Assembly (NCBI GenBank): GCA_951406725.2
Contig: OX597819.1
Location: forward strand, 46,376,001 to 46,440,000
DNA from: Octopus vulgaris
Lineage: Eukaryota
Reading direction: 5' to 3'
DNA: 64,000 nt
Shown piece after piece: positions 3,575 through 61,437 of this stretch. The notes below the pieces were generated by a model. That model saw nothing but the letters and a program-made list of their open reading frames with translations. It ran no database searches and was not told where the DNA came from. Positions within the stretch are counted from its first letter, which is position 1, and each line of letters opens with the position of its first letter. The translations under genes and the position numbers were made by a program.

Positions 3575-3724
3575 CACCCTCAATCCATCCTTTCAATCCT
3601 TTCTGTCGAAGAGCGTATGCTCGAAACGTCAAAGACTTTCCATTCTTCCTCAGCGTTAGATTAACACACCTGCTTCTTGTTTCTTCACTTGTCTTCATCT
3701 TTTGTTTTCTTTATGTTTGAACTA
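3575..3724 (+). mobile_element. Short non-autonomous element with minimal hammerhead-like motif (Penelope pLTR-like), family H1
   Basis: CTTT-CTGTCGA-A-GAGC(GTAT)GCTC-GAAAC-GTC-AAAG at 3599-3634. The downstream sequence is shared with the 8640 and 55720 copies. Confidence 0.7.
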
Positions 3725-4369
3725 TACACACACACACACACACACACACACACACACACACACACACACATACACACATACACACATACACACACACATG
3801 CATACAGACATACAGGTATGAAAATATTCGTGTCCATGTTTCAACGTATGAAGAGAGATAAAATCATATATGAAAGACGGGAAAGCGCAAATAGCATGTT
3901 GTATCAAAATGAATGAAAAGGAAAGACAATTACATGTAAAGCTAAGACAAACAAGCAGAAAATCTTATATACATTTGTGCATATGTAGTAATAAGAGTAT
4001 ATGATTAACATAATATATAAATAATAAACATATAAGTTTCCAAAAACAAAATGTCGTAACAACCAGTAAGCAATAAAAAATACTATGCCAAAAAATAGAT
4101 AAATAATAAATGAAAGGAAAAGATGCGAATAATGTGGGAAACAAGTAAAAAAGAAAAGGAAAGAAACGATGCGGAGAGGCATCTACGAAAGGTATGAAAA
4201 ACTAGAAATATAACAGAGAAGGTGCCCAGAATAACTAGGAAATATTCTGTGTTGTTATATGTGAAAACAAAAGATATGCATACATATAAACAGCTTTACG
4301 TGGTGAGAAAATAGTATAAATAAAACAGGAATAAATGAAGTATAAAATAAGTAAGAGATATACAGAGCA

Positions 4370-6215
4370 ATAATATGTATACACATACGTATATGTGTAT
4401 ATATATATATATATATATATGTGTGTGTGTGTGTGTGTGTGTGTATGTGTGTATGTATGTGTGTGTGTATGTATATATATATGTATGTATATATATATAT
4501 ATATATATATATATATATATATAATATATAGATATACAGATAGATAGATAGATAGATATAATATATATATATATATATATATATATATATATATATATAG
4601 ATATATATATATATATATATATATATATATATATATATATATATATATATATATATATATATATATATATATATCAACGCAGATATATCAACACGCTCGC
4701 ATATGAAGAGAATCGGGGAGAGGAAAAGGCGAAACATTAATAATGATAAAAAAATAATAATTTAAAAAATTCGGGAAAGAAAAAAAGAAAAAGAAAATGA
4801 TATGGAATGAAACCAGGAGAAATGAAAACAAAAGTAAATAAAAAATTGACTACCAACAAAAAAATAAGACTAAAAATGTAAATAATAAAAATATAACTGT
4901 GTACATATATATGTGAGTGTGTGTGGATGTGCGTGTATATATATATATATACACAAATACATATATACACACATATATACACACACACTATATATATATA
5001 TATATATATATATATATATATATATATATATATATATATATATATATATATATATATATATATATATATATATATGTATATATATATACATATATACGGA
5101 TGGATGAATGTACTCCTGCGGATCAAATCAACGAAACGATAATGAAATTGAGAGATTATCAACGATCGATGTTGCTTGATCCACTAGATTAAAACGTTGC
5201 CGGCTCGAAACGACAACTGGCGAAGATTAAGCATGGCGAATTAAATCTTACTCCGACAGGCGCAATTTTATTCGCGGCATACGTGTGAGTGGGTGTCTGT
5301 CTGTTTGTTTTGTTCGTACACATACCCACGCTGACAACACATACATGCACGTTCGCCACAGACACAGACACAAGTACATATAAATATATAAATATATATA
5401 TATATACATATATATGTGTGTGTGTGTGTGTGTGTGTGTGTGTGTGTTTGTGTGTGTGTGTAGGGCTGTTTGTATATATATATATATATATATATATATA
5501 TATATATATATATATATATATATATATATATATATAAATATATTTTTTTATTTATTAATTTTTATATATATATATATATATATATATATATATAATTATG
5601 TGTGTGTGTGTGTGTGTGTGTGTGTGTGTGTGTGTGTGTGTGTGTGTGTGTGTGTGTGTGTGTGTGTGTGTAGTGTGTGTGTGTGTTATATGTGTGGGTA
5701 TATGTGTGTGTGTGTGTGTGTGTGTGTGTGTGTGTGTGTGTGTGTGTGTCTTCTGTGTGTGGTGTGTGTTGTCTCTCTCTCTCTCTCTCTCTCTCTCTCA
5801 ACGTCTCAATAACTCTCTCTACTCTCTCTCTCTCTCTCTCTCTCTCTCTCTCTCTCTCTCTCTCTCTCTCTCTCTCTCTCTCTCTCTCTCTCTACTCTCT
5901 CTCTCTCTCTCTCTCTCTCTCTCTCTCTATATATATATATACACACACACATGTATGAATAAGAATACGCATTTGAGTGTTTGCTTGTATGTGTATGTAC
6001 ATGTTTGTACGTATATGTGTTTGTGTATATATATATGTGTATATGTATATATATATATATATATATATATATATATATATGTGTGTGTGTGTGTGTATAT
6101 ATATATATATATATATATATATATATATATATATATGTAAATATATATATATATGTGTGTGTATATATATATATATATATATATATATATATATATATAT
6201 ATATATATATATATG
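4370..6215. repeat. Compound microsatellite block (TA)n/(TG)n/(TC)n
   Basis: Direct reading; it is the source of the poly-YI, poly-CV and poly-LS ORFs. Confidence 0.95.
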
Positions 6216-6882
6216 CACGTTATGGATCAATAACGAAATATATGAGTGCCTGTGTTTTATGTATATCAAAGTAAGTCTGTGTTTGTGTCTGTGTGTCGAG
6301 GTATGTATGCTTGGCAGTGTCTCCGTGTGTATATATATTCGCTTCTGTCTGAGTGTGTTTATGATACGTACGTGCCTGCTTGTTTCTGTAGCTTTGTTTG
6401 TTAATGTTCATATAGTCTTGTCTTCAATAAAGTCTTAGCAACGCTAATCGTAAGAATGACATCCAGTCAACCCAATCAGATAAAAAAAATAAATAGTAAA
6501 ATATAAAGATATCCCCGCAAAAACCAATCCAATCACAGCTGGTACCTTCCCCCTCATTCTCCTTCTTGAGCTAGTCTTCTCTTTCTACTGATCCTTCATT
6601 CAGACAAGGTTGCAAATGTAAAAACATCAACATAAATATTAGCATGCAAATTTGTTCATAAGAAATTAATATGTCTAAACATAAATCGGTGGCTGAGTCT
6701 GTACATATGTGTGTTTCTGTACATGCATATACTTACATCATACGTATAGATGTGTGTGTGTGTGTATATATATACATATGTAAATATATACATATGTATA
6801 TATGCATATATATACATATATGTACGTATATATCCATACTCGTATACATGATATATATATATATATATATATTATGTATATA

Positions 6883-7270
6883 TTCTTTTATTCTTTTACT
6901 TGTTTCAGTCATTTGACTGCGGCCATGCTGGAACATTATTTTTAGTCGAGCAAATCGACACCAAGACTTATTCTTTGTAAGATAAGTACTTATTTCATCG
7001 GTTCCCTTTTATCGAACCGCTAGTTACGAGGACATAAATACACCAGCATTAGTTGTCAAGCGATGGTGGGGACACAAACACAGATACAGCAACACACAAA
7101 CACACATATATATATACATACATACGACGGGATTCTTTCAGTTTCCGTCTGCCAAATCCACTCAGAAGGCTATAGTAGAAAACACTTGCCCATGGTGCCC
7201 CGCAGCGGGACTGAACCCAGAACCATGTGGTTGATAAGCAAGCTACATACCACGCAGCTACTCCTGCCCT
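6883..7270 (-). mobile_element. SINE family B, near full length
   Basis: Reverse complement runs from GGGCAGGAGTAGCTGCGTGGTA through the CORE-like region to the CAGCATGGCCGCAGTCAAATGACTGAAAC tail. Confidence 0.9.
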
Positions 7271-60300: not shown

Positions 60301-60492
60301 GCATCTTTCCGACATTCCTTTTTACCTTTTGTTTATCTTACAACAGACAAGCGAATAACGGTGGTATGTGATGCGTATGCATAACTTTAATCGTTTCCTT
60401 ACGTATTATTGTCATACAAACCCCCTAAAAAAAATCTAACCAAGGAGCTTCTATATCTTTTCCAAGTGACTTGATCTGCTAGAAACAGCAGC

Positions 60493-60716
60493 AAGCTGGC
60501 AGCAACGTTAGCACTCCTGGCGAAATGCCTAGCGGTATATCATCTCTGCCATTACGTTCTGAGTTCAAATTCCAAGGTCGACTTTGCCTTTCATCCTTTC
60601 GGTGTCGATAAATTAAGTACCAGTTACGCACTGGAGTCGATGTAATCGACTTAAACCGTTTGTCTGCCCTTGTTTGTCCCCCCTGTGTGTAGCTCCTTGT
60701 GGGCTGTAAAGAAATA
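60493..60716 (+). mobile_element. SINE family A with 12-bp TSD
   Basis: The flanks are AGAAACAGCAGC (60481-92) and AGAAACGGCAGC (60717-28). Confidence 0.9.
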
Positions 60717-61233
60717 AGAAACGGCAGCCGCATCAAATCATAGATTACTCCCTTAACTTTCTTGAAAAGAGGAGATGCTTCTGAAAAATATAGTTCTGGG
60801 CATGCAGAAAGATGGGGTTGACTCTTTGATCTAAGGGTTTTCAACGATGGCTTCTATACGACTATAACGAAGAAAATAACAGCAATGCTTTTCTGAAGTT
60901 CCAACATACCGCATTGAAAAAGGAAGGGCATAATGGACAATATACACACACACACACACACATATATACATGTATGTATACGTATATGCATGTTAACATA
61001 TATATTGATATACATACATACATACGTACATATATATATATATATATATATATATATATATATATATATATATATATATATATGTATATATATAGAGAGA
61101 GAGAGATTGAAAGATAGGTATACACAAATGTATTTATATGTATAAATATATATATATATATATGTATGAATATATACATACATACATATATATATATCTG
61201 TGTGTGTGTGTGTGTGTGTGTGTGTGTGTGTGT

Positions 61234-61437
61234 GACCTCGTGTGTACCGTTGGCGATTTTTTTTCATTTGTCTTCCCTTCTCTGGATCTTTCCTTCTCCT
61301 ATGTTTCCGACGAAGAGCTCCGCTTGAAACGTTAAACCTTCCTTCTTTCCTTCTTTCCTGAGCGTCCAATAATACTATATTTGTTCCACGTCCTCGCGTT
61401 GTTGTGTTTTTTTGTGCTTCCTTGTTTGGGTTAACTT
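61234..61437 (+). mobile_element. Hammerhead-motif element, family H2
   Basis: GTTT-CCGACGA-A-GAGC(TCC)GCTT-GAAAC-GTT-AAAC at 61303-61337. It ends in (TA)n. Confidence 0.72.

What the first reader, a model, noticed from the sequence alone, without database searches (positions are those of the whole stretch)
3599..61437. Dispersed short non-coding elements built around minimal hammerhead ribozymes (retrozyme-like)
Four plus-strand motifs (3599-3634, 8768-8803, 54948-54982, 61303-61337) share one architecture: stem I, C(T/C)GNNGA-A, GAGC-loop-GCTC stem II, GAAAC-GT(T/C), stem I'. Stem I covaries between families (CTTT/AAAG versus GTTT/AAAC) and loop II varies freely, which is the signature of selection on RNA structure. 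Stem III is reduced to the palindrome ACGT, as in the established minimal type-I hammerheads of Penelope-like elements that are proposed to cleave as dimers. Family H1 has a non-canonical CUGU(C/G)GA core in both copies. The elements show no ORF and end in microsatellites. Inference: abundant non-autonomous ribozyme retroelements mobilised by Penelope RT/GIY-YIG, whose remnants are in the same window.
Basis: partly seen in the sequence, partly recalled or inferred. Interest (0 to 1): 0.8.

Follow-up and report, generated by a model that had tools for sequence, protein, structure and literature searches.

The report
Penelope hammerhead stubs with altered core
The four motifs are small hammerhead-shaped RNA sequences of a known kind, carried by very abundant short repeats that are likely stubs of Penelope-type jumping genes copied back to the start of their RNA, and one family carries an unusual core letter throughout that is predicted to slow self-cutting, which is untested.

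Summary
All four motifs are present at the stated coordinates and far above chance. They fit the published minimal hammerhead of Penelope-like element (PLE) end repeats (pLTRs), and a near-identical motif is printed for a coral PLE (PMC4209133 supplement).

They do not behave like retrozymes: the copies are single, and the laid contigs show no tandem or circular joints.

Public contigs show thousands of copies of both families. In H1, a longer form exists, and about a tenth of the partly fitting contigs stop at one 5' boundary about 70 nt before the core, not at the cut site. H2 has a similar boundary.

In 71 metagenome loci with the same motif, 6 lie just behind a PLE endonuclease gene. Short copies there begin about 30 nt behind a TATA box, so such stubs are likely run-off cDNAs from the transcription start.

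H1's U at core position 6 is family-wide, while variation falls at tolerated positions. Not shown: cleavage, and the parent gene of H1 or H2. The PLE remnant in this window has a different pLTR. The scan found these families and this model before on other DNA.

The parts
3570..3722 (+). H1a element (diverged H1 subfamily, 77% to H1b over 116 nt), placed after a SINE-like repeat tail and ending in (AC)n; 5' boundary approximate
3599..3634 (+). Minimal type-I hammerhead, core CUGUCGA (U at 6), bulged A, 4-bp stem II, ACGU palindrome, predicted cut after C3630
   Evidence: numbering
8560..8700 (+). Upstream part of the long form of H1 (extends at least to 8560; true 5' end not determined)
   Evidence: covered by many contigs in 4 of 4 runs at 0.08-0.29 of the depth over the short unit (depth is not copy number)
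8701..8891 (+). H1 short unit: dominant 5' boundary at about 8699-8702 (inferred RNA start), hammerhead, 3' end before (AT)n
8768..8803 (+). Minimal type-I hammerhead H1b, core CUGUGGA (U at 6), predicted cut after T8799
54918..55050 (+). H2a element, 5'-shortened, lacks the last 33 nt of H2b; hammerhead 54948-54982 with G at core position 6
55700..55808 (+). H1c: decayed third H1 copy (3' part 86% to H1b; hammerhead destroyed), ends in (TC)n
61231..61437 (+). H2b element from the family's common 5' boundary to its 3' end; hammerhead 61303-61337 with C at core position 4 and G-U first pair of stem II
61405..61437 (+). 33-nt 3' extension present in H2b and absent in H2a, the size of the optional PLE 'tail' (two copies only)
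   Evidence: PMC8557442, PMC11167929
16200..18340 (-). Broken PLE (RT C-terminal part, CxxC linker, GIY-YIG) with inverted 5' pLTR (18224-18340) and one-sided 30-nt tail (16200-16229); a different family from H1/H2, context only

Best explanation
The four motifs are minimal type-I hammerhead folds inside short repeats that are likely pieces of the end repeats (pLTRs) of Penelope-like retrotransposons, and most copies are likely run-off cDNAs of the front end of the element's RNA. Shown: the motif; thousands of related contigs; a longer form of H1; a preferred 5' boundary 71 nt (H1) and about 76 nt (H2) before the core; microsatellite flanks; a family-wide U at core position 6 in H1. Inferred steps: (1) RNA polymerase II starts inside the pLTR at that boundary. 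(2) The PLE protein nicks AT-rich or microsatellite DNA and starts reverse transcription inside the RNA, 70-105 nt behind the hammerhead, at one of two sites about 33 nt apart. (3) It copies uncleaved RNA to its 5' end, leaving a 190-205 nt stub; copies made from read-through or tandem RNA give the longer forms such as H1b. (4) The hammerhead would cut slowly, only as a dimer (through ACGU) or with the PLE protein, and U6 would slow it further, so that most templates stay uncut.
For: Architecture equals the published PLE consensus NNN CUGANGAH G..C GAAAN-palindrome-NU H NNN, and a PLE-linked Acropora motif with the same stem II arm, loop and ACGU is printed there. In 6 of 71 metagenome loci with this architecture a PLE endonuclease C-terminus ends 61-120 nt upstream on the same strand. 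Of 59 distinct loci, 25 were scored as fold-backs (the score cut-off is loose and some are doubtful). 40 of 52 loci not linked to an ORF share 12 nt or less of upstream sequence with the long forms. A TATAWA lies 29-31 nt before that boundary in 9 of 17 long forms, against 2 of 41 short ones and 0.8% background. In H1, 126, 122, 136 and 20 contigs stop at one place with mixed AT-rich flanks (6-12% of partly fitting contigs; no other listed 5' pile exceeds 40). H2 loose ends converge likewise (16-67%). None of the 24 best-supported loose ends lies at the cut site, as in the anole element (PMC11167929: uncleaved RNA is the substrate, internal RT start, tail). Promoters inside pLTRs are known (PMC2377424, PMC3846280, PMC8557442). 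Constraint: of 5 listed variable positions inside the H1 motif, 4 are at N7, loop II or H17 (P about 0.003) and the fifth turns a C-G pair into U-G; stem I changes on both sides at 3 of 4 pairs across families.
Against: No PLE ORF was linked to H1 or H2: 150 proteins and a profile made from them found nothing upstream of H1b, though they are all relatives of one PLE clade. H1b has no TATA box 30 nt before its boundary, so the RNA-start reading for H1/H2 rests on analogy and on a shared ATTCGC start word. Three mismatches of H1b near the boundary focus loose ends onto one place, and 1196 weaker loose-end rows and 34 variant rows were not shown. The metagenome loci were picked by an exact pattern, so their stem II and 5' reach are biased. 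No cleavage data and no raw RNA reads.
Confidence: 0.65

Rival explanations
1. The short units are self-propagating non-autonomous mini-elements: each 190-205 nt stub keeps an internal promoter, is transcribed again and is copied in trans by a PLE protein.
For: Short form dominates (long/short depth 0.08-0.29); sharp 5' boundary; no parent ORF found; the D. virilis Penelope promoter is internal (PMC2377424); non-autonomous PLEs exist (PMC8557442 passage).
Against: A long H1 form is common; in the metagenome family the TATA box lies outside the stub and is lost; no downstream promoter element was recognised by eye in H1b.
Confidence: 0.18
2. Ordinary 5'-truncated 3' ends of PLEs, with the preferred boundary caused by an RT stall or a microhomology site rather than by the RNA start.
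For: 5' truncation is the standard reading (PMC4209133, PMC8557442); H1a, H1c and H2a start at other, nearer places; no TATA in H1b.
Against: In the metagenome family the boundary sits at TATA spacing, and inverted arms stop in the same region.
Confidence: 0.09
3. True non-LTR retrozymes: circular RNAs made by hammerhead cleavage of tandem repeats and reverse-transcribed back into the genome.
For: Small, non-coding, abundant; one contig with a back-joint 8869 to 8790; retrozymes are proposed PLE derivatives (bioRxiv 10.64898/2026.07.22.740005).
Against: All window copies are single; sequence before the hammerhead is not the 3' end of the unit; no well-supported back-joint among 15 of 19 joints shown; the motif is minimal, not canonical, and the core is altered.
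Confidence: 0.05
4. The H1 motif is a dead ribozyme kept for another reason (protein-binding RNA structure or a DNA-level promoter word).
For: A6 is part of the consensus core, and A6C greatly lowers cleavage in magnesium (PMC7151607 passages); hammerhead mutants did not affect insertion in vitro (PMC11167929). This can hold together with the best explanation.
Against: Variation follows hammerhead tolerance (N7, loop II, H17), which is hard to explain without the catalytic fold.
Confidence: 0.03

Closest known systems
Minimal hammerheads (min-HHR) in pLTRs of metazoan Penelope-like elements (Cervera and de la Pena 2014, PMC4209133; parts 1-2 of 4 and part 2 of supplement 2 read)
   Same: Type I, 3-5 bp stem I, unpaired base between A9 and G10.1, G10.1-C11.1, stem III reduced to a palindrome, U-rich flanks, mostly single dispersed copies; the Acropora entry is nearly the same sequence.
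   Different: H1 has U at core position 6 across the family (all entries seen in supplement part 2 have A6); parent ORF not shown here; fixed 5' boundary not discussed in the parts read.
PAc, Poseidon PLE of Anolis carolinensis (Frangieh et al. 2024, PMC11167929; parts 1-2 of 4 read)
   Same: Hammerhead in the pLTR, insertion ends a short way behind it, optional tail, AT-rich targets, no reads ending at the cut site.
   Different: PAc has a canonical core and an ORF starting in the hammerhead; no ORF start is evident in H1/H2.
Animal non-LTR retrozymes (Cervera and de la Pena 2020, PMC7229834, passages; Li et al. 2026, bioRxiv 10.64898/2026.07.22.740005, parts 1-3 of 5)
   Same: Short, non-coding, type I hammerhead, PLE-related.
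   Different: Those are 150-450 bp tandem repeats, typically with canonical, efficiently cutting hammerheads and circular RNA; H1/H2 are single, minimal and core-altered.
Natural position-6 variant Bcep176 A6C (PMC7151607, passages)
   Same: Natural change at core position 6.
   Different: A6C in a phage hammerhead, active in manganese; here A6U in an animal retroelement family, untested.

Membership tests
Minimal PLE hammerhead | Type I topology, short stem I, extra base between 9 and 10.1, G10.1-C11.1 | tested here: met
   H2b has G-U at 10.1-11.1
Minimal PLE hammerhead | Stem III reduced to a palindrome allowing dimers | tested here: met
   ACGU in 4 of 4
Minimal PLE hammerhead | Core CUGANGA (or U3-A8) | tested here: not met
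   0 of 4 window copies canonical; H1 U6 family-wide; H2 family state not resolved. Hence filed as a variant.
Minimal PLE hammerhead | Slow self-cleavage as dimer or with protein | not testable with these tools
   no bench data
EN+ Penelope-like element pLTR | Lies directly behind an RT/GIY-YIG ORF in long copies | tested here: inconclusive
   not found for H1b (one clade's proteins only, no genome); met for 6 of 71 same-architecture metagenome loci
EN+ Penelope-like element pLTR | Optional 30-40 bp tail at the 3' end | tested here: inconclusive
EN+ Penelope-like element pLTR | Inverted or partial-tandem 5' copies | tested here: inconclusive
   none at the four window sites; one opposite-strand joint in H1 contigs; common in the metagenome family
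EN+ Penelope-like element pLTR | Microsatellite or AT-rich targets | tested here: met
   flanks; AT-rich loose ends on both sides
Non-LTR retrozyme | Head-to-tail tandem repeats of 150-450 bp | tested here: not met
   single copies in window; no well-supported back-joints (short contigs cannot prove absence)
Non-LTR retrozyme | Canonical type I hammerhead with efficient cleavage | tested here: not met
   minimal fold, altered core, no Rfam hammerhead match for H1b or H2b
Non-LTR retrozyme | Circular RNA | not testable with these tools
   only contigs were available

The most novel reading that the evidence does not exclude
H1 is a self-propagating 190-nt mini-retroelement made of only the 5' leader of a Penelope-like RNA (start site, hammerhead, RT start site), whose A6U hammerhead is a selected, attenuated ribozyme that cuts only with the PLE protein or with manganese, so that the template stays whole for copying; short copies landing in (TA)n might regain a TATA-like promoter from the target.
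Probability: 0.15. Interest if true: 0.65.

Novelty: new variant of a known kind. Interest (0 to 1): 0.36.

Why it matters
The role of PLE hammerheads is an open question (PMC8557442 and PMC11167929 say so). A very successful family with a fixed change at core position 6, beside families with other cores in the same genome, is a natural experiment on whether cutting is needed. The fixed 5' boundary would explain why animal genomes hold thousands of single minimal hammerheads, and would give PLE transcription starts from DNA alone. The class of motif itself is known, so this refines a known system.

Tried and rejected
No whole genome is held for this window, so there are no copy numbers or trees.

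Rfam scan of the whole window: the best 150 of 464 rows were all microRNA models, taken as chance hits on microsatellites; 314 rows were not shown. Targeted Rfam scans gave no hammerhead or tRNA match, and ARAGORN found no tRNA.

Pattern scans of viral contigs and prokaryote genomes gave 0 hits. The word-index protein search with the PLE remnant gave 0 of 236, and Pfam missed the remnant itself. The 423-aa ORF next to the motif in L069 lies on the same strand but had no hit from the PLE proteins, so it was rejected as a parent.

Free-energy folding does not recover the hammerhead as monomer or dimer; this is uninformative for such motifs. The window's PLE was rejected as demonstrated partner because its pLTR does not match H1/H2. 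The H2 core state (U4 or C4) could not be read because the tool skipped the 3' half of that stretch: among listed loose ends 5 contigs showed C4 and 1 showed U4.

Runs X1 and X2 are only guessed to be RNA, so transcription is not shown. Splicing in the leader was considered; all skip-joints rest on one contig per run. Two look-ups by sequence in earlier scan notes found nothing.
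Full report
Observation. The four motifs are at the coordinates given. A relaxed minimal-hammerhead descriptor found these four and nothing else on either strand, against a mean of 0.07 hits in 30 simulated windows. They fall into H1 (77% alike over 116 nt) and H2 (91% over 132 nt), and a decayed third H1 copy lies at about 55700-55808. 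None has the canonical core: H1a and H1b have U at position 6, H2a has G at 6, H2b has C at 4. Inside the window, stem I covariation is a single pair. The host is probably an octopus; that name comes from my recall of its repeats and from earlier scan notes on the same genome, not from a test here.

What kind of motif. Cervera and de la Pena 2014 (PMC4209133; main text parts 1-2 of 4, supplement 2 part 2 of 3 and four passages; supplement 1 not searchable) define minimal hammerheads of PLE pLTRs: short stem I, an unpaired base after A9, G10.1-C11.1 and a palindromic stem III, mostly as single dispersed copies. All of these features are present here. Their Acropora entry, marked as PLE-associated, has the same stem II arm, loop and ACGU.

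Relatives. An exact-pattern scan of metagenome contigs returned 71 loci. All have A at position 6 although the pattern left it free (66 AC, 4 AA, 1 AT), and they match that Acropora family closely. In 6 of 71 a PLE endonuclease C-terminus ends 61-120 nt upstream on the same strand. Across four window and six metagenome motifs, stem I changes on both sides at 3 of 4 pairs (0 of 500 shuffles reach the covariation score; the rows are related and hand-picked, and stem II was fixed by the pattern). So this architecture is a PLE pLTR motif.

Family structure. Laying H1b (8560-8890) on four runs brought 3272-11993 contigs each; laying H2b brought 135-5532. H1 continues upstream to at least 8560 at 0.08-0.29 of the depth over the short unit (depth is only a rough guide), so H1b is a long form. 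The largest loose-end pile in the three larger runs is 126, 122 and 136 contigs (20 in X1, about equal to two others). These keep the family sequence to about 8699-8702 and then turn into mixed AT-rich DNA: 6-12% of partly fitting contigs, sharpened somewhat by three nearby mismatches of H1b. H2 has a comparable pile about 76 nt before its core. None of the 24 listed loose ends is at the cut site (1196 weaker rows not shown), and back-joints rest on single contigs. This argues against tandem, circle-derived retrozymes (PMC7229834 passages; bioRxiv 10.64898/2026.07.22.740005, parts 1-3 of 5, supplements closed).

Why a fixed 5' end. In the metagenome family, 40 of 52 distinct loci without an ORF share 12 nt or less of upstream sequence with the six ORF-linked loci (12 duplicates and one short-flank locus left out). 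The boundary is an A seven bases before the core. In long forms a TATAWA lies 29-31 nt before that A in 9 of 17, against 2 of 41 short or fold-back loci and 0.8% background. That is TATA-to-start spacing (established knowledge). The H1 boundary begins with the same ATTCGC word in the family majority, but H1b has no TATA box, so for H1/H2 the reading is by analogy. PLE promoters lie in the pLTR (PMC2377424, PMC3846280, PMC8557442; passages). The anole PLE starts reverse transcription inside its RNA a short way behind the hammerhead, at two sites that define a 30-40 bp tail, uses uncleaved RNA, and cuts only with protein (PMC11167929, parts 1-2 of 4). An RNA starting in the pLTR would therefore give a short start-to-RT-site cDNA. 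H2b is 33 nt longer at its 3' end than H2a, the size of such a tail.

The U6 core. In one search the T-to-A places counted for X3, X4 and X5 are all accounted for by other positions, so A6 is under 5% of depth in 3 of 4 runs; in X1 one T-to-A place is unlisted. T-to-G at position 6 is excluded in all four runs; T-to-C is not. Among the 40 best-supported of 74 variant rows, five positions fall inside the motif: N7, two loop II bases, H17, and a C-G to U-G change in stem II (P about 0.003 for 4 of 5 in 7 tolerated positions of 36; unlisted rows may include CpG decay in the core). The fold therefore looks constrained while U6 is fixed. A natural A6C variant is weak in magnesium and active in manganese (PMC7151607, passages), so slow or conditional cutting is the prediction.

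What is in print. Searches for 'hammerhead' with 'A6U' (3 papers, 2 listed) and 'hammerhead ribozyme' with 'cephalopod' (4 papers, 2 listed) showed no report of this variant in their listings. An octopus repeat annotation has no occurrence of 'ribozyme' (PMC13282606, passages). Searches showed no paper on run-off stubs in their listings. The most relevant paper, Lunse et al. (PMC5785218), is not held; I saw it only cited in a review (PMC6765202, passages), and it may cover A6U.

The PLE remnants. 16200-18340 (-) is a broken PLE: relatives carry RVT_1 and GIY-YIG, and it has an inverted 5' pLTR and a one-sided 30-nt tail. A second endonuclease fragment lies at 11259-11474 (-). The first element's pLTR does not resemble H1/H2, and neither the 150 relatives nor their profile match upstream of H1b. 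The parent of H1/H2 is therefore unidentified.

Earlier notes of the scan. They report the A6U family in this genome and the run-off model in other genomes. I had noted the model before that look-up. These notes are not independent evidence.

Verdict. Real, and mostly a known kind: PLE-type minimal hammerheads, likely in run-off stubs rather than retrozymes. The new points are the family-wide A6U core under apparent constraint and the fixed 5' ends. Interest 0.36.

Noticed in passing
window 32520-32800 (+): A tRNA-like head (by eye; not called by ARAGORN or Rfam), an (AAC/AAT)n spacer and a body with a canonical-core minimal hammerhead at about 32698-32748 (long stem II, damaged stem I), ending in (ATT)n: a possible SINE with a PLE-type 3' end. 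A 47-nt piece of its 3' end recurs at 21593-21639 beside an inverted stub.
   Followed up: partly
window 16200-18340 (-): Broken PLE with inverted pLTR and one-sided 30-nt tail next to (AAT)n. Its pLTR has TATAAA 21 nt before a CTGATGA core at 16413 whose GAAA part is missing, and an initiator-like TCATTC 32 nt behind the TATA.
   Followed up: partly
window 11259-11474 (-): Second GIY-YIG fragment of a PLE (E 3e-9), followed by a GAAACAGT word at 11171 that may be a decayed hammerhead.
   Followed up: no
window 8682-8688 and 61231-61237: The word TGTGACC lies about 20 nt before the H1 boundary and at the H2 boundary. H1b and H2b also align weakly behind the hammerhead, so the two families may be distantly related.
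   Followed up: no
L001-L071: Many loci are fold-backs whose inverted arm reads GGGC where the forward arm reads GAGC in stem II and stops within about 12 nt of the core.
   Followed up: partly
window 7722-8138 (-), 49490-49933 (-), 36935-38538 (-), 52520-53641 (+), 15425-15856 (+): Other transposon remnants: mariner-like transposases, a Gypsy-like integrase/RNase H region (Pfam hits) and LINE-like RT C-termini (the 7722 and the last two by recall only); about ten copies of a SINE-like family (for example 3176-3557).
   Followed up: no
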